A stretch of DNA of 64,000 nucleotides, from assembly GCA_965242725.1 (NCBI GenBank), contig CBDESZ010000016.1:128001-192000 (forward strand). The letters are read 5' to 3'. This stretch comes from Alkalispirochaeta sp. (lineage in GTDB: Bacteria; Spirochaetota; Spirochaetia; DSM-27196; Alkalispirochaetaceae). Positions 24,335-38,530 of this stretch are shown here, piece after piece. Below the pieces are notes generated by a model that was given only the letters and a program-made list of their open reading frames with translations, searched no databases and was not told where the DNA came from. Every line of letters starts with the position of its first letter. The first letter of the stretch is position 1. The translations under genes and the position numbers were made by a program.

Positions 24335-26467
24335 TTACTTCAGTGCCTGTCTCAGTTCCAGAGACAGCGTATTCACGACGCGTCCGTTCGGGTTGACAAT
24401 CGCACCCCTGTCGGTGTCGTACCCGTCCACCATCAGTCCCGCTTCCGCTCCTTCCCGTACGGCGGCGTGCAGATTTCTCGGTGAAACCGCGTCTCCAACG
24501 CGTATGGTCGGAATACCCGCACGGCGGAGCTCTTCGTGAAGGCTCCCATCCGGCTGCATACGACAGCACACGACGGTGTCGGCTTCGATTTCCCGCGTTT
24601 TGAGATCCCCCGTAAGAACGACGACACGGTCCTGACGGATTTCCACAATCTCGGCGGCTTCCACAATTTCGACGGGATGTCTGAAAGGTTTTGTTTCCAG
24701 TGCAGGGGCAGTTTGCACTTTGAACTGCTGATTCATGACCCAGCGGTGAATCACCTCTATCCCGGCGCCAAACTCCACCTCGGATGTAACGATGGTGACC
24801 CGACGCCCAATCCGCGCGAGGTGAGCTGCCGTGTCCGCCGCAGGGTAGTGATCACCCCAGACAAGGACGCGTTCACCCGTCTTTACCGGCTTCCGGCCGT
24901 TTTGTGGATGAAACTCGCAGCTTACCTTCGGGCAGGTCATCACCGCCTCAAGGGGGAGTACATGAGCCCCCTCGGCTCCCGGCACCCGGGGTCGAACGGA
25001 ACGGGCACCGGTGGCGTCAATGACATAGTCAAACCGCCTGAGTTCCTCCACCGACGGCGGGTGGTTCAATTCCACATGAACCGGCGATTGTCTGATACGG
25101 TCTCGAATCCAGTCGGTGTACCAACGGATCTTTTCCTTGCCGTCTACGAGGCAGCACCCCAAAATGGCCCCGCCCAACTCGCCGCTTCTTTCAAAGAGCG
25201 TCACCGAATGTCCGCGGAGCGAAGCGATGCGTGCCGCCTCCATACCCGCGGGGCCGCCGCCCACCACGCCAACCTTGAGGGGGAACTGGGCGGGTTCGAT
25301 TTCGGTGAAGCGCATGTCGCCGCACGCCGGATTGATGGTGCACGCGATTTCACGCTTGGCCATGATAGAGTCCTGCCAGCACCCTTCAAGACAGGAAATA
25401 CAGCGTCGTATTTCCGACTCCCTGCCTAAAAACGCCTTGGTCGGCCACCAGGGGTCGGCGAGCAGCTGTCGGGAGAGACCCACCATATCGGCCTTCCCCT
25501 CAGCAAGGGCGCGGTCGCAAAATGCCGGATTGCGCAGGGTATGACTCGCCAAAACCGGAATCCGCACCCGCTTCCTGATCGCTTCGGAGATGTGGAGATT
25601 CCATCCCTCTTGTATCTGGATCGGATCGAGGCCGACCGACGGTGCGCCGCTGGTACTGACGTTGATACAGGCCACACCGGCACGCTCCAGCTCCTGCGCC
25701 ACCGCAATGGCCTCCTCAAGATCGCGCCCGCCCGGGGTAAATTCGACGGCGTTAAACCGCACCGAAATTGAGAAGTCCCGGCCGCACTTCTTCTGTATCG
25801 AGGCGACAATTGCGAGAGGAAAACGCATCCGGTTTTCAAAACTGACGCCGAACCGATCGTCCCGCCGATTGAGATAGGGACTCATGAAATCAGAGATCAA
25901 ATAGCCGTGGGCCGCGTGGAGTTCGACACCGTCAAAGCCCGCCTGTCTGACCCGCCACGCCGCCTCGGAAAAGAGGTCCACCATTTCAAGGACTTCATTG
26001 GTGGACATCCCCCGCGCAGTCGTTCCTTTCGACTCGTCATCCGCGTAGACAACTTCGTGACCGGAGCCCCAGAATATCCTGGATACCCGGTCATTGGTGG
26101 TAAACATGTCGCGTCGCGGTATTGAAGACTTTGGACCCGGATGCTGGAGCTGAACCATGCAGCGCGCTCCGTATCGGTGCATCACCTCCGCCAGTCGCGC
26201 CAGCCCGGGAATGTAGTTATCCCCGTCGGCGACGAGGCAGCCCACCGTGGGACGTCCGGTCGCTGCATCCGGCGTGGTGGCGCCGACGATAATGAGGCCC
26301 GTACCGCCCTTGGCAATTTCCTGATGGTGATGAATGTCCCGCTCGCTCACCGATCCGTCCGCGTTTGACGAGCTGGTATCCGTCGGCTGGTGGACAATGC
26401 GATTTGGTATAATCAGTGACCCCACTTCGATCGGCCTGAACAGGTGGGGATATCGCAGATCGTTCAT
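24335..26467 (-). CDS. NADH:flavin oxidoreductase (OYE/BaiCD/FadH-like; FMN, 4Fe-4S, FAD), paralogue 2
   Basis: GFDGVELHAAHGYL, CISCLEGC...CTINP, VVGGGPAGMEAA. Confidence 0.93.
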   Translation of the reverse strand: MNDLRYPHLFRPIEVGSLIIPNRIVHQPTDTSSSNADGSVSERDIHHHQEIAKGGTGLIIVGATTPDAATGRPTVGCLVADGDNYIPGLARLAEVMHRYGARCMVQLQHPGPKSSIPRRDMFTTNDRVSRIFWGSGHEVVYADDESKGTTARGMSTNEVLEMVDLFSEAAWRVRQAGFDGVELHAAHGYLISDFMSPYLNRRDDRFGVSFENRMRFPLAIVASIQKKCGRDFSISVRFNAVEFTPGGRDLEEAIAVAQELERAGVACINVSTSGAPSVGLDPIQIQEGWNLHISEAIRKRVRIPVLASHTLRNPAFCDRALAEGKADMVGLSRQLLADPWWPTKAFLGRESEIRRCISCLEGCWQDSIMAKREIACTINPACGDMRFTEIEPAQFPLKVGVVGGGPAGMEAARIASLRGHSVTLFERSGELGGAILGCCLVDGKEKIRWYTDWIRDRIRQSPVHVELNHPPSVEELRRFDYVIDATGARSVRPRVPGAEGAHVLPLEAVMTCPKVSCEFHPQNGRKPVKTGERVLVWGDHYPAADTAAHLARIGRRVTIVTSEVEFGAGIEVIHRWVMNQQFKVQTAPALETKPFRHPVEIVEAAEIVEIRQDRVVVLTGDLKTREIEADTVVCCRMQPDGSLHEELRRAGIPTIRVGDAVSPRNLHAAVREGAEAGLMVDGYDTDRGAIVNPNGRVVNTLSLELRQALK

Positions 26468-26477
26468 CTGTTGTCGC

Positions 26478-28607
26478 TCATGTGGCCGTCCCCAGTCCGT
26501 GCTGCAGCTCCAGGGAAAGGGTGTCCACAACCCGTCCATTTGGATTGACGAGCGGTGCACCTTCAAGTACCCGTGCTGCCTCCGCCCCTTCTCTCACCGC
26601 GGAGTGAAGATTACGCGGGGCGACAGAGTCGCCCACATTGACGACGGGAATGCCCGCCGCCCGCAGCTGGTCGTACAGCGAGCGGTCGGGAACCATTCGA
26701 CAGCACACAACGGTATCCGCAGGAATCTCCTGTTTCTCAAAACGGTCGTTCATCACCACCACGGCGTTGTCGCGAATCTCGACGATTTCACTCGACTGAA
26801 CCAGCCGCACGGGGTGCTTGAAGGGTTTTGAATCCAGCGCCTCCGCATCGGAGAGGGCAAAGCGCTTACGGAGCACATACATGTGAATGACTTCTATGTT
26901 GCGACCAAACTCGCTCTCCGCGGTGACGATGGTTACGTCCCGTCCCATGCGCGCCAAATGAGCCGCCGTATCCGCGGCGGGATAGTGATCGCCCCAGATC
27001 ACCACCTTTTCCCCCGTCTTATACGGCTTGCGCCCATTTTGGGGATGGTACTCGCAGGAAATCCTGGGGCAGGTAAGAACGCTCTCCATCGATACCACGT
27101 GACTCAGCTCATTCCCCGGAACGTCCGGTTTGGTCGAATGTGCGCCGGTGGCGTTGATGACCATGTCAAAGGAGGAAAGCTCCTCAACGGTGGGCTCATG
27201 ATTGCGCTTCACCGTTACATCCATTTCGCCGATCGTGTCGCGTATCCAATCGGCGTACCAGCGCATCTTCTCTTCCTTCCCTTCCACAAAACAGCAGCCG
27301 AGAATGGCGCCTCCCAGCTCGGCGCTTTTTTCAAAGAGGGTGACCTGGTGACCCCGCAGCGCGGCGATGCGCGCCGCCTCCATGCCGGCGGGTCCGCCGC
27401 CGACAACTGCAAGTTTGATCGCCTCTTTGGCCGGTGCAAGATTGTCGTAGAGGTCGTTTCCACAGCCGGGGTTGATGGAGCACATGATCTCTTTCTTGGC
27501 GAGCATTGAGAGCTGCCAGCACCCTTCCAGACAGGAGATACAACGACGTATCTTTTTCTCCTTGCCGACAAACGCCTTCATGGCCCAGTACGGATCCGCA
27601 AGGATTTGACGGGAAAGACCGACCATGTCGGTTTTGCCCTCCTTCAGGATGCGCTCGCAGTACTCGGGATTCCGCAGGGTGTGGCTGTTGATGACGGGAA
27701 TCCTGACGTGTTTCTTGATCTCTTCAGAATGGAAGACGGTCCACCCCTCGGGGTAGTACATCGGATCAAACCCCGCGGCGGGGCTCTCCTGCACGCACTG
27801 ACTCAAGTCCAGAGCGGCTACACCGGCACGCTCAAACTCCCTGGCTACCTCGACACTCTCTTCCAGGGTCCGTCCCCCGGGAACCCACTCGTCCACGGAG
27901 TAGCGCACGAGAATTGGAAAGCTCTTGCCGCACTTTTTCTGAATGGAAGCGATGATCGCCAGGGGGAAGCGCATTCTGTTCTCAAAGCTGCCGCCGAATC
28001 GGTCGTTCCGCCGATTGATGTAGGGACTCATGAACATTGAAATCAGATATCCGTGGGCGGCGTGAAGTTCAACGCCGTCAAACCCGGCCTGTTTCACCCG
28101 CCACGCGGCTTCGGAGAAGAGGTCCACCATCTCGAGGACCTCGTTCGTCGTCATCGCGCGCGCCTCTTTGCCATGCTCCTCGGCATTCTCGTAGACGATC
28201 TCGTGACCCGCTGACCACGGCAGTTTGAGGACCATGTCGTTTGTGGACATGATGTTGTGGCGGGGTATTGCGCATTGCCGGCCGGGGTGCTGCAGCTGGA
28301 GGACGCATTTCGCGCCGTAACGCTGCATCGACTCCGCCATCCGGGCGAGACCGGGGATATAGTTGTCCCCGTCGGCCACCAGACACGTGACGGTGGGACG
28401 TCCGGACTTGGCGTCCGGAGTGGTCGCCCCGACCACGATGAGCCCCGTGCCGCCCTTGGCGACCTCCGTATGGTGGTGGATGTCCCGCTCACTGACCGAG
28501 CCGTCGGCGTTTGAGGAACTGATATCCGTCGGGACGTGACAGACGCGGTTGGGAACGGTCATGGTACCGATTTCAATGGGTGAAAACAGATGGGGAAACT
28601 TGGTCAC
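26478..28607 (-). CDS. NADH:flavin oxidoreductase (OYE/BaiCD/FadH-like; FMN, 4Fe-4S, FAD), paralogue 1
   Basis: GFDGVELHAAHGYL, CISCLEGC...CSINP, VVGGGPAGMEAA. Confidence 0.93.
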   Translation of the reverse strand: MTKFPHLFSPIEIGTMTVPNRVCHVPTDISSSNADGSVSERDIHHHTEVAKGGTGLIVVGATTPDAKSGRPTVTCLVADGDNYIPGLARMAESMQRYGAKCVLQLQHPGRQCAIPRHNIMSTNDMVLKLPWSAGHEIVYENAEEHGKEARAMTTNEVLEMVDLFSEAAWRVKQAGFDGVELHAAHGYLISMFMSPYINRRNDRFGGSFENRMRFPLAIIASIQKKCGKSFPILVRYSVDEWVPGGRTLEESVEVAREFERAGVAALDLSQCVQESPAAGFDPMYYPEGWTVFHSEEIKKHVRIPVINSHTLRNPEYCERILKEGKTDMVGLSRQILADPYWAMKAFVGKEKKIRRCISCLEGCWQLSMLAKKEIMCSINPGCGNDLYDNLAPAKEAIKLAVVGGGPAGMEAARIAALRGHQVTLFEKSAELGGAILGCCFVEGKEEKMRWYADWIRDTIGEMDVTVKRNHEPTVEELSSFDMVINATGAHSTKPDVPGNELSHVVSMESVLTCPRISCEYHPQNGRKPYKTGEKVVIWGDHYPAADTAAHLARMGRDVTIVTAESEFGRNIEVIHMYVLRKRFALSDAEALDSKPFKHPVRLVQSSEIVEIRDNAVVVMNDRFEKQEIPADTVVCCRMVPDRSLYDQLRAAGIPVVNVGDSVAPRNLHSAVREGAEAARVLEGAPLVNPNGRVVDTLSLELQHGLGTAT

Positions 28608-34935: not shown

Positions 34936-34959
34936 ACTTCGTGATCGAAGTTGTATATT
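34936..34959 (+). promoter_or_regulatory. TA operator palindrome and -10 box
   Basis: ACTTCG-TGAT-CGAAGT (34936-34951), then TATATT 6 nt before the GTG start. Confidence 0.55.
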
Positions 34960-34965
34960 TTTGGT

Positions 34966-35193
34966 GTGAAAGTTAAGACCTCCGTCATGCTTTCCGAAGA
35001 ACTCCTGGCTGCTATCGATCAAGAAACGCACGGAAAAAACCGCTCGGTACTTATCGAAGAAGCCTCCTGGAGTTATCTCCGATCGCGTAGACGTCAAGAA
35101 CGTCAAGAACGAGAACTCGACAGAATCAACAGCGACGCAGTAAAGCTGAACAAAGAAGCTCTCGATACAATTGAGTTTCAAGAGGTCGAATGA
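34966..35193 (+). CDS. Ribbon-helix-helix antitoxin
   Basis: KTSVMLSEELLAAID...NRSVLIEEA; 4-bp overlap with the toxin. Confidence 0.85.
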   Translation: MKVKTSVMLSEELLAAIDQETHGKNRSVLIEEASWSYLRSRRRQERQERELDRINSDAVKLNKEALDTIEFQEVE

Positions 35194-35519
35194 AACGCGG
35201 TGACATCTACCTCGTGAAAAAGCCGTCGAATGATGAGCCGGAGCGACGCCGGGCGTTTGTCGTCGTCAGTCGCCAGGTTCTTATCGATTCGAAGTACGCT
35301 ACCGTTATGTGCGCTCCGATTTATTCTGCAATCTCCGGATTGGACACCCAAGTCATCATTGGAACACCGGAAGGTATGAACCACGAGAGCGCAATTCATT
35401 GCGACAATCTGGTCAGTCTTCCCAAGTCCATCCTTACAGATCTCGTCGGATCCCTTGGCTCGGAAAAAACGTGCCAGCTTGACCAAGCGCTTTCTATTGC
35501 GCTTCATCTCGATGAATAG
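35190..35519 (+). CDS. mazF: PemK/MazF-family toxin (endoribonuclease)
   Basis: MKRGDIYLV, RRAFVVVSR, CAPI, SAIHCDNL. Confidence 0.9.
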   Translation: MKRGDIYLVKKPSNDEPERRRAFVVVSRQVLIDSKYATVMCAPIYSAISGLDTQVIIGTPEGMNHESAIHCDNLVSLPKSILTDLVGSLGSEKTCQLDQALSIALHLDE

Positions 35520-35629: not shown

Positions 35630-35762
35630 AACAGATGGTAGAGCTGAGCCGCTGGATACGGCGGTGAGCGTGAGCGAGCCGACTGGCGCGCCCGTTGCCG
35701 GCGCCAGCCGACTAGCAACGAGCGTGACAGAAGCAACAATCGGCTGGAACGACTTGTTAGAT
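35630..35762 (-). mobile_element. Integron attC site with a degenerate R' end
   Basis: Minus strand: ATCTAAC (R'') AAGTC GTTCCAGCCG ... internal stem ... CGGCTCAGC TCTACC; the expected GTTRRRY reads ATCTGTT. Confidence 0.72.
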
Positions 35763-35768
35763 GGCGAC

Positions 35769-36461
35769 TCAGACGGTAATTGGGTCAATCAGCGTTTCTT
35801 TAAGCGTCTTCACGAGCTCCAGCTCATATTGGATGTCATCAATCCTCTGTTGCGACGAGATCCCTGCGTGTTGATTGATCTGAATCGTGAAGCTTTTGAA
35901 AGGTATAATGATGCTCGAAAGCGTGGCCCCATCATCGATGAAACGATCGAAGATGGGCTCATGACTGAGATCTGCTCCAAATAAGGCGGATGCAGATACC
36001 CTAGTACTCACTTTTCGAAACCACGCTCCCAGAAAGTCTGGCACCCGCCCCTTGAGAGCATGGAGATCAAGCGTTAGCTCGTGGACTTTAGTTTTGAGTG
36101 TTGAGTTATTCTTGATAGTTCGAAGCACGTCTTTGGATACGAATGACTGTACTGCAATTAATCCAAAACCCTGTTCCGGTTCACGGTAGAACGGAAATTT
36201 GAAGTTTTTAAGGTATTCGTTGAAGTTGACACGAACGGGTTCGCCTTCGAAAAAACCAAAAGCGGTTCCGGAATCCTTGAGGATCATCTCGTGCGAGAAC
36301 TCGAACAATTCGAACCCGTGATAGTCTATGTTGCGCTTAGTGATTTGCGTATCCGGAGGCTTTGTAAACCCCTCCAGAGACTCACCCTTTGCCGTAGAAA
36401 TGGTCTCATTGATATCTAGTTGGGGAAAAGCTTCAACTCGGACGATTCTATAAGAGTTCAC
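35769..36461 (-). CDS. Hypothetical protein (230 aa), second gene of a two-gene integron cassette
   Basis: GTG start overlaps the upstream TAG (TAGTG); stop lies 6 nt before R''; low GC. Confidence 0.75.
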   Translation of the reverse strand: MNSYRIVRVEAFPQLDINETISTAKGESLEGFTKPPDTQITKRNIDYHGFELFEFSHEMILKDSGTAFGFFEGEPVRVNFNEYLKNFKFPFYREPEQGFGLIAVQSFVSKDVLRTIKNNSTLKTKVHELTLDLHALKGRVPDFLGAWFRKVSTRVSASALFGADLSHEPIFDRFIDDGATLSSIIIPFKSFTIQINQHAGISSQQRIDDIQYELELVKTLKETLIDPITV

Positions 36462-37228
36462 TATGCGAGTCCCTTTAAGTTGACGACATCCAAGGCATCG
36501 CTGGAGAGAGCCGAGAATAACTTGGCTCGAATGCTCAACGAGTTTTTGCTTACCCAAAGAGACTCATTGGCACTATTGGGTAGGCGGACCTTGCAGTCAA
36601 ACTGTTGAATGCTCTGCTCGGGTAGACGCCGAAGCCAATAAGAATAGAATGGACTCCGCTCCCCGTAGTCAATGCGTAACTCGAACATCCGCTCCGCACC
36701 ACTATCCTGCCTCATGTAGTTGCCAATAGTTTCCAGAAGTTGAGACAGTTGCGACATTCTACGCGAAGCGACCCTCATTGGCACGTCAAACTTTGCGGTC
36801 TTAATGAACAGTTCGAGTTGGTCGCCGTAAGGCTGAAGACGAAGCTCAATGAGAATTCGTTCCTGCCATATGAATGCCAAGTAGTCGTCGGATGATTGCA
36901 CGATCCGCGCCGTGCTATCACTAAGTGCAGTCGAGGCAGATCCAATGTCGAAATCGAGGACACTCCAATATCTCGCAGTAAGCTCCCATGATGTGTAGTC
37001 ATGTCGAAGCCGAAGGATGAGTCTTTGAACAAACAGGAACAATTTGTAGTTTGAGTTATAGAATGCCTGAAACGTCGCAATAAGATAACTGCCGAGTGCT
37101 ACTGCGCTTTCGATGGAATTCCATTCGGATATGATCCGGTCTCTGAAGACAAAATAGAGCGTTGGAACACCCAAAAAGAAGATGAATGCAAGTACCGGAA
37201 CAGCAAACCGTGGCGTCGATCTACTCAT
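36461..37228 (-). CDS. Hypothetical membrane protein (255 aa, two N-terminal hydrophobic segments), first gene of the two-gene cassette
   Basis: FAVPVLAFIFFLGVPTLYFVF and SAVALGSYLIATFQAFY; starts about 60 nt after R'. Confidence 0.78.
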   Translation of the reverse strand: MSRSTPRFAVPVLAFIFFLGVPTLYFVFRDRIISEWNSIESAVALGSYLIATFQAFYNSNYKLFLFVQRLILRLRHDYTSWELTARYWSVLDFDIGSASTALSDSTARIVQSSDDYLAFIWQERILIELRLQPYGDQLELFIKTAKFDVPMRVASRRMSQLSQLLETIGNYMRQDSGAERMFELRIDYGERSPFYSYWLRRLPEQSIQQFDCKVRLPNSANESLWVSKNSLSIRAKLFSALSSDALDVVNLKGLA

Positions 37229-37238
37229 CACATAGAGA

Positions 37239-37267
37239 ATATTAGCACGAGACGTTCTTGCACACAA
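37239..37267 (-). promoter_or_regulatory. Cassette-internal promoter
   Basis: TTGTGT-17 bp-TAATAT with TGn extension, 7 nt before GTG-ATG. Confidence 0.55.
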
Positions 37268-37287
37268 ACACGTGTTTAGTATTCGCC

Positions 37288-37403
37288 ATCTAACGTTGGC
37301 TTGAGCTGCTGGCTCCGGCCCGAGCAAAGCGAGGGATTGGCGCGGTTGTTGCGTACGCGACAACCGTGCCAAAGGAACAGCCAGCTCGAAGCCGTTGTTA
37401 TGT
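37288..37403 (-). mobile_element. Integron attC site (intact, 116 bp)
   Basis: Minus strand: ACATAAC (R'') AACG GCTT(C)GAGC (L'' with extra C) ... central hairpin ... GCTCAAGC (L') CAAC GTTAGAT (R'). Confidence 0.9.
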
Positions 37404-37438: not shown

Positions 37439-38395
37439 CTACCTATCCGTCAATTCGCTCATGCTCTTTGTGTACGCGCGATTTCGAGAAACATCGAGTG
37501 ATTCCACGTCATGGAAACGCTCTTTTGCGTTGTTCCAGACGATCAACGGCTCATAATCCGGATAGTCACCGGGGCGTGCACTTATAGGGAACTTGCCAAC
37601 GAAAGTGTTGAGAATTCGTACGTAGGCGAATACGGACGTGTCTGTCTTATTCACGAACGCAATGTTGTGGTGTTGGTATTCTTCAAAAGGATCATACGCG
37701 TCGTTACTGCTTCGGACTACAGATATGTATTGGGCGTACTCGTTCGTGTATTGCCGATTTGATGCTGCCACTATCGCAGACCGTGCTTTGGCACAGCTCG
37801 GATCAGCCAAAAAACCCGTACCTAACCACATACTTGCAAGTTCAAAGGCGATTTTATACATCGCGATGGAAAGCTGAGCAAAGTCAATCGAAAACCTTAT
37901 GGTCATTGGCGGAGCTGGTTCATCAATGATCGTCATATCTCTAACTAGTTCATCTTTGCTCAAACACTGTAGTCCTTGTTTTCGTCTTTTCCGGTTTACA
38001 TGGTCCAACACCATGTCGATTTCATTGATATCTGCGGTCATGGTCACAAGTGTCCTGTCCGATTCGATAACCTTTTCTTCAAAAGAAAACGGCGCTACTA
38101 TCCGAGTTGGCTGCCCCCGATCATTAAATTCGTATGTGTACTTCTGTCCGTCCTGCCCCCGCAACGCCTTATTGTAAAACGCCGTTGAAAGCTTACCGTC
38201 CTTGTCCCGAATCTGATTTAGGAGCATTGCCATCCGAATGGGGAAACAATCCGTCAGATGTACGTCGACAGAATGCCCAAGTTTGGCGTTGCAGTCCTTG
38301 CACACGAACCGGACACACAGAGATCCTCCAATAGCTTCAGGAAAGACGTGCTCGTCACTGGGTTCGCAATTGCGCTGACAGAAAACGCAGGTCAT
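37439..38395 (-). CDS. HNH endonuclease (HNH_5-like) in an integron cassette
   Basis: CVFC...SDEHVFPEAIGG...VCKDCNAKLG. Confidence 0.88.
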   Translation of the reverse strand: MTCVFCQRNCEPSDEHVFPEAIGGSLCVRFVCKDCNAKLGHSVDVHLTDCFPIRMAMLLNQIRDKDGKLSTAFYNKALRGQDGQKYTYEFNDRGQPTRIVAPFSFEEKVIESDRTLVTMTADINEIDMVLDHVNRKRRKQGLQCLSKDELVRDMTIIDEPAPPMTIRFSIDFAQLSIAMYKIAFELASMWLGTGFLADPSCAKARSAIVAASNRQYTNEYAQYISVVRSSNDAYDPFEEYQHHNIAFVNKTDTSVFAYVRILNTFVGKFPISARPGDYPDYEPLIVWNNAKERFHDVESLDVSRNRAYTKSMSELTDR

Positions 38396-38421: not shown

Positions 38422-38434
38422 CGTGCAACATAAC
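38422..38434 (-). mobile_element. Cassette crossover core site (attI-like or secondary site)
   Basis: Minus-strand GTTATGTTGCACG is the exact complement of the cassette's inverse core CGTGCAACATAAC at 37397-37409. Confidence 0.75.
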
Positions 38435-38530
38435 ATCCTCCACTCCAGACTTTTCTGTATAACTCCGGTTCCCCGTCCTCCCCCTCACAACGTGGTTGTC
38501 AGACAAACGGGAAATCCTGGAAACTGATGC

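What the first reader, a model, noticed from the sequence alone, without database searches (positions are those of the whole stretch)
35769..37293. Two-gene, self-promotered integron cassette of unknown function: candidate novel anti-phage system
Seen: a single cassette holds two ORFs coupled by a TAGTG overlap. One is a 255-aa protein with two N-terminal hydrophobic helices and a soluble C-terminal region. The other is a 230-aa soluble protein (FLGAWF...VSASALFGADL). A TTGTGT-17-TAATAT promoter lies inside the cassette. I recognise no family for either protein. Established: most cassettes are single-gene and promoterless, while two-gene autonomous ones are often TA or defence modules, and integron arrays are known to carry anti-phage genes. 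Inference: a membrane effector plus sensor/partner, flanked by an HNH nuclease and MazEF in a mini defence island.
Basis: partly seen in the sequence, partly recalled or inferred. Interest (0 to 1): 0.82.

Follow-up and report, generated by a model that had tools for sequence, protein, structure and literature searches.

The report
Rex-like two-gene phage defence cassette
An integron gene cassette carries a membrane protein and a DNA-clamp-shaped partner that travel together in prophages and defence islands of many bacteria, which makes it a likely but untested new relative of the phage lambda RexAB antiviral system.

The parts
36461..37228 (-). ORF1, 255 aa: two N-terminal membrane helices, a juxtamembrane helix, then two TBP/KA1-like alpha/beta domains; putative membrane component
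   Evidence: homologue starts align with this ATG rather than the 321-aa database call
35769..36461 (-). ORF2, 230 aa, GTG start: RdgC/RexA-fold soluble protein; putative sensor
   Evidence: 46 of 132 aligned relatives match phrog_18260, function unknown
37239..37267 (-). Promoter-like site TTGTGT-17-TAATAT with TG-extended -10, 10 nt before the ORF1 ATG, no Shine-Dalgarno
   Evidence: sequence; shuffles; not listed (7 of 12)
37288..37403 (-). attC of the upstream HNH cassette; its R' forms the 5' border of the two-gene cassette
   Evidence: 83% identical over 115 nt to an attC in a second array on contig C5
35625..35762 (-). attC of the two-gene cassette: R'' and L'' intact, L'/R' non-canonical (decayed); lower end approximate
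   Evidence: related to C5 attC sites; another contig of the same sample carries the same attC type with canonical L'/R'
37439..38383 (-). Upstream cassette gene, 314 aa, N-terminal HNH endonuclease domain
   Evidence: PF14279 E 4.8e-9; cassette ends complementary
38426..38462 (-). attI-like site heading the array (no attC hairpin, no adjacent integrase)
   Evidence: poor fold; a 33-nt look-alike at C11:39719-39751 ahead of another gene; attI label is inference
34951..35519 (+). RHH-type antitoxin (34951-35193) and PemK/MazF-like toxin (35190-35519); neighbour on the opposite strand, not a cassette
   Evidence: PF02452 E 8.5e-14; PF01402 E 0.029, below cut-off

Best explanation
A RexAB-type two-component anti-phage (exclusion or abortive-infection) system of an unnamed family, captured here as an integron cassette that expresses itself from its own promoter. 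ORF2 is an RdgC/RexA-fold protein (modelled) that probably dimerises as a clamp and senses phage DNA intermediates or a phage protein (inferred from RexA). It then engages the cytoplasmic domains of ORF1, whose two membrane helices oligomerise and impair the membrane, arresting the infected cell (inferred from RexB, SclB and RexBpp). Shown: gene anatomy, folds as models, pairing, neighbourhoods. Inferred: dimerisation, ligand, contact between the two proteins, pore formation, protection.
Against: No phenotype. No sequence link to lambda RexA (hhalign probability 0.2 for ORF2, 0.6 for ORF1); RexA's own structure appeared in no fold list, so the link runs through RdgC. ORF2 is acidic (pI 5.7; family median 6.0, net charge -4), which does not favour DNA binding. 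ORF1 is unlike RexB: two helices and a 190-residue soluble part, against four helices and 16 kDa. A simple hydropathy scan finds two helices in only 13 to 22 of 37 members by threshold, some rows being partial. In 13 of 35 paired loci the genes are convergent, so not co-transcribed. Remote haloarchaeal ORF2-like hits (6 of 251 genomes) have no ORF1 match. Neighbourhood counts are hand-classed and loci are not independent.
Confidence: 0.55

Rival explanations
1. Anti-phage, but by membrane-tethered DNA capture (Kiwa-like): ORF1 marks or senses the entry site and holds ORF2, which clamps incoming DNA and blocks its transcription or replication without killing the cell.
For: ORF1 has a large conserved cytoplasmic part (W81, N/S-P-Y/F 192-194, K228) with TBP-like subdomains; only two helices; RdgC-fold proteins encircle DNA.
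Against: No Kiwa profile matched any of 132 or 31 members; KwaA has four helices and the Kiwa text mentions neither RdgC nor RexA; ORF2 is acidic.
Confidence: 0.15
2. Anti-phage with reversed roles (Butters gp30/gp31-like): ORF2 is the toxic effector and ORF1 sequesters it at the membrane until infection releases it.
For: Precedent within the Rex class (PMC12894663); strict pairing fits a needed inhibitor; some haloarchaeal ORF2-like genes stand without a partner.
Against: No catalytic residues conserved in ORF2; three of the other four Rex-like systems besides lambda use the membrane protein as effector.
Confidence: 0.1
3. Not defence: an accessory module of prophages and mobile elements that modulates recombination or the lysis-lysogeny switch, as RdgC restrains RecA and RexA biases the lambda switch.
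For: Frequent position beside repressor, ImmA and integrase genes; RdgC and RexA have such activities; phage RdgC proteins top the viral fold list.
Against: Also found after lysins, among restriction-modification genes and in an integron cassette, where a switch regulator has no target; does not explain the obligatory membrane partner.
Confidence: 0.1
4. A toxin-antitoxin addiction module that stabilises the array or element.
For: Two genes, translational coupling and own promoter are typical of TA cassettes (established knowledge); TA cassettes occur in the genome's second array (labels from my reading of the sequences).
Against: Both proteins are 230-260 aa; no TA family match; convergent arrangement in 13 loci; no DNA-binding autoregulator domain in the membrane protein.
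Confidence: 0.07

Closest known systems
Lambda RexA-RexB and RexAB-type systems (Sbash gp30/31, CarolAnn gp44/43, P. putida RexABpp, Butters gp30/31)
   Same: Soluble RdgC-fold protein plus membrane protein; often next to a prophage repressor.
   Different: No detectable sequence similarity to lambda RexA; no Pfam RexA or RexB hit in 132 and 37 members; ORF2 is shorter (230 vs 279 aa) and acidic; partner has two helices plus a large soluble part rather than four helices; usual order is membrane gene first or convergent.
Sucellos (sclA-sclB) of the Vibrio cholerae integron (bioRxiv 10.1101/2024.07.02.601686)
   Same: Two genes in one integron cassette with its own promoter; RexAB-like by predicted structure; one membrane component.
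   Different: Sucellos homologues are reported in Vibrio integrons and Salmonella prophages; my profiles found no full-length match in 401 Enterobacterales or 251 Vibrio genomes.
RdgC-histone operon (histone, RdgC-like protein, membrane protein; PMC11390915)
   Same: RdgC-like protein coupled to an unknown membrane protein in Bacillus and Halobacteria.
   Different: That operon begins with a histone, its RdgC-like protein has two extra domains and its membrane protein has a winged helix; ORF1 and ORF2 models show neither, and only 1 of 35 paired loci has the RdgC-then-membrane order.
Kiwa (KwaA-KwaB)
   Same: Membrane protein plus soluble partner in a two-gene defence system.
   Different: KwaA has four helices, KwaB is DUF4868; no PADLOC or Pfam match.
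RdgC (E. coli 2OWL; Pseudomonas 2OWY) and CENP-L/Iml3
   Different: 8-11% identity; about 70 residues shorter; RdgC has no membrane partner (recalled).

Membership tests
Integron gene cassette | ORFs bounded by a GTTRRRY crossover and a complementary RYYYAAC, next to attC sites | tested here: met
   11-nt complementary ends and canonical upstream attC
Integron gene cassette | Own attC complete (R'', L'', L', R') | tested here: not met
   L'/R' non-canonical; intact sister attC in the same sample; no contig bridges the 31-nt repeat at 35673-35703, the join rests on matching depths
Complete integron | IntI integrase in the genome | tested here: not met
   TIGR02249 best 77 bits, cut-off 265; assembly 91.8% complete, so absence is not proven
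RexAB-type systems | Soluble component with RexA/RdgC fold | tested here: met
RexAB-type systems | Adjacent membrane protein always paired | tested here: met
   35 of 35 loci with flank
Lambda RexA / RexB protein families | Sequence match to RexA or RexB | tested here: not met
Lambda RexB-like effector | Small four-helix membrane protein | tested here: not met
   two helices plus soluble domains
RexAB-type systems | Soluble component dimerises and binds DNA non-specifically | not testable with these tools
   no homodimer job run; protein is acidic
RexAB-type systems | Both genes needed for phage exclusion; membrane damage | not testable with these tools
   needs phage assays
Sucellos | Sequence homology to SclA/SclB | tested here: inconclusive
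   sequences not obtained (bioRxiv supplements closed; one search found none); no full-length match in Vibrio or Enterobacterales samples, but whether those genomes carry Sucellos is unknown
Kiwa | KwaA four-helix profile and KwaB DUF4868 | tested here: not met
RdgC-histone operon | Histone gene first; membrane protein with winged helix | tested here: inconclusive
   no room for a histone gene in the window cassette and no winged helix in the ORF1 model; the published proteins were not compared directly, and genes under 80 aa were not scanned in homologue loci

The most novel reading that the evidence does not exclude
An undescribed branch of membrane-coupled antiviral immunity, spread over at least six bacterial phyla, in which an RdgC-fold clamp works with a two-helix membrane protein whose cytoplasmic TBP-like domains dock the clamp. 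The pair would tether and stall incoming phage DNA at the membrane, or gate a channel through a folded receptor domain that RexB-type pores lack. RexAB, Sucellos, the RdgC-histone operon and this family would then be one superfamily of RdgC-fold sensors with interchangeable membrane partners, reaching haloarchaea.
Probability: 0.2. Interest if true: 0.8.

Novelty: new variant of a known kind. Interest (0 to 1): 0.58.

Why it matters
Only five RexAB-like systems were counted in a 2026 paper (PMC12894663), plus Sucellos, and how the RexA-type protein switches on its membrane partner is still open. This family adds dozens of divergent, strictly paired examples, many from cultured Bacillota, with a membrane partner that has a folded cytoplasmic domain suited to structural work. 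It gives a testable function for two unannotated families (ORF2 relatives match phrog_18260) that PADLOC 2.0 misses. The integron capture itself is a second instance of the Sucellos pattern rather than a new phenomenon.

Full report
Observation. The unit is a cassette: it begins after the G|TT crossover at 37294 and ends at R'' 35762-35756, and its ends are 11-nt reverse complements. The upstream attC (37403-37288) is canonical, folds at -32.6 kcal/mol on the bottom strand and is 83% identical to an attC in a second array on contig C5. The cassette is 46.9% GC against about 58% for its contig. The promoter-like site is present with an extended -10 but only 7 of 12 consensus matches (not listed); a looser version occurred in 0.25% of leader shuffles, a post hoc test.

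Setting. The array is short: an attI-like site near 38432 (my inference), an HNH cassette (PF14279), then this cassette. No tyrosine recombinase in the assembly reaches the integron-integrase cut-off (77 of 265 bits; 91.8% complete). The cassette's own attC lacks a canonical L'/R'. Contigs from the same sample include another attC of this type, 5 differences away, with a canonical end and about three times the depth in two of four runs. Contigs break at a 31-nt repeat inside the attC, so the window's join rests on matching depths, not on a bridging contig. The cassette is therefore probably stranded and, if expressed, depends on its own promoter. The RHH/PemK pair lies on the other strand and is a neighbour, not a cassette.

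Families. Neither protein matches Pfam, PADLOC 2.0 or NCBIfam. ORF2 has 6 close relatives at 43-49%, and a profile of these found 159 representatives at E up to 0.001, of which 150 were listed; I aligned 125 near-full-length ones with the first 7 (132 rows). 46 of the 132 match phrog_18260, of unknown function; the window protein itself does not. ORF1 alone found only itself; relatives came from neighbours. The ESM Atlas placed both near unnamed clusters (scores 0.93-0.97, recognition below the mark) and gave CENP-L and RdgC as weak leads.

Pairing. 35 loci were found through ORF2: 12 by the metagenome scan, 3 of 4 viral motif matches and 20 of 94 genome motif matches. Five are too short (L009, L102, L104, L107, L112). 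All 30 others have the ORF1-type gene adjacent. A profile built from 10 close ORF1 sequences recovered it in 17 of the 19 distant loci at E up to 0.1; the other two (L044, L093) had a membrane-protein neighbour that I then added to the alignment, so those two are circular. From the other side, an ORF1 profile hit 6 of 401 genomes of a Bacillus order, and all 5 new ones had ORF2 adjacent. Arrangements: 21 membrane gene first, 13 convergent, 1 reversed. Record titles and protein names span Bacillota, Gemmatimonadota, Chloroflexota, Planctomycetota, Aquificota and Spirochaetota (phylum assignments from my knowledge). The family is rare: 0 of 400 other genomes in the window's phylum. Pairing fails at the edge: 6 of 251 Halobacteria genomes have weak ORF2-like matches (E 1e-7 to 9e-4) and none has an ORF1 match; one has a one-helix partner with a soluble domain (L125) and one a four-helix neighbour (L128).

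Neighbourhood. Pfam on 123 neighbours of 34 loci: 27 loci have a marker that I classed by hand as prophage, mobile element or defence (restriction-modification, MmeI, YhcG, RhuM, NACHT, reverse transcriptase, Mrr, AIPR, AbiV, DUF4145, AAA_15/21, HicB; integrase, recombinase, ImmA-type M78, S24 repressor, holin, lysin, tail, Rep, transposase). Seven had none (L015, L016, L045, L066, L077, L081, L097). In controls, chance motif matches from the same scan, 1 of 16 loci had such a marker; I scanned 72 of 126 prepared control proteins from 16 of 22 loci, and two controls are near duplicates. Three positive loci come from a viral collection by construction and several metagenome loci share an assembly, so no test statistic is given. 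No attC flanked the pair in any of 36 homologue loci.

Mechanism. The simplest account is a RexAB-type system: ORF2 as clamp-like sensor, ORF1 as membrane effector (0.55). Rivals are membrane-tethered DNA capture (0.15), reversed roles as in Butters (0.10), a prophage switch or recombination accessory (0.10) and addiction (0.07). Every step after fold, pairing and context is inference.

Comparison. Lambda rexAB sits beside cI. Sucellos is a two-gene, self-promotered, RexAB-like integron cassette in which both genes are needed (bioRxiv 10.1101/2024.07.02.601686, passages read; its supplements were closed and bear on the sequence comparison). PMC12894663 (passages) counts five RexAB-like systems and describes a four-helix RexBpp. 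PMC11390915 (passages) describes a histone, RdgC-like, membrane-protein operon of different architecture. PMC11785009 on Kiwa (passages) mentions neither RdgC nor RexA. PMC11077077: abstract, passages and section 19. Other papers were seen as search listings only. The pair works like RexAB on present evidence but is not a member of the RexA or RexB sequence families, and Sucellos membership is unresolved. The scan's own index had no look-alike of ORF2 by sequence and one note on a RdgC/RexA-fold protein with a soluble partner in another genome, which I did not check.

Verdict. Real feature; new variant of a known kind; interest 0.58. The family is unnamed, widespread, tightly paired and easy to test, but the class and even the cassette format have precedents, and no activity is shown.

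Noticed in passing
G000:C5:120000-142200: A second, larger integrase-less cassette array with attC sites of the same type, several toxin-antitoxin-like pairs, a 553-aa DUF262-like gene and insertion sequences (labels from my reading of the sequences).
   Followed up: partly
window 38430-38462 and G000:C11:39719-39751: The same 33-nt attI-like stretch precedes a GTTAT crossover at two unlinked places; at C11 it leads into a 419-aa gene that looks like a restriction endonuclease.
   Followed up: partly
G000:C6:94955 and C6:116739: Two identical 99-nt attC-like sites, each next to an identical IS3-like element and before the same AraC-like gene start.
   Followed up: no
window 37229-37238: An ATG-TGA mini frame overlaps the ORF1 start (ATGTGATG) about 7 nt after the -10 box, with no Shine-Dalgarno: possibly a leaderless start-stop that couples translation.
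   Followed up: no
L097:6641-8470: The pair lies directly after a truncated sigma-factor gene that looks like the 5' half of sigK, so perhaps inside a skin-type element (Sigma70_r2 hit; sigK label recalled).
   Followed up: no
L128:1456-2687 and L125:952-2845: Haloarchaeal RdgC-like genes next to a four-helix gene near an integrase-like gene (L128) or a one-helix partner and an endonuclease-like gene (L125): possible partner swaps.
   Followed up: partly
control genome Methanocaldococcus jannaschii: phrog_18260 rings in this genome only, of 14 controls, in line with the Atlas lead PF25924 MJECL33.
   Followed up: no
L016:708-1445, L032:7571-8276, L084:8431-8850: Frameshifted or truncated copies of one gene of the pair; decay or assembly error not told apart.
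   Followed up: no
window 24335-28607: Two tandem paralogous flavin oxidoreductase-like genes (743 and 709 aa; 71-74% DNA identity in two 300-nt blocks; function label from my reading).
   Followed up: no
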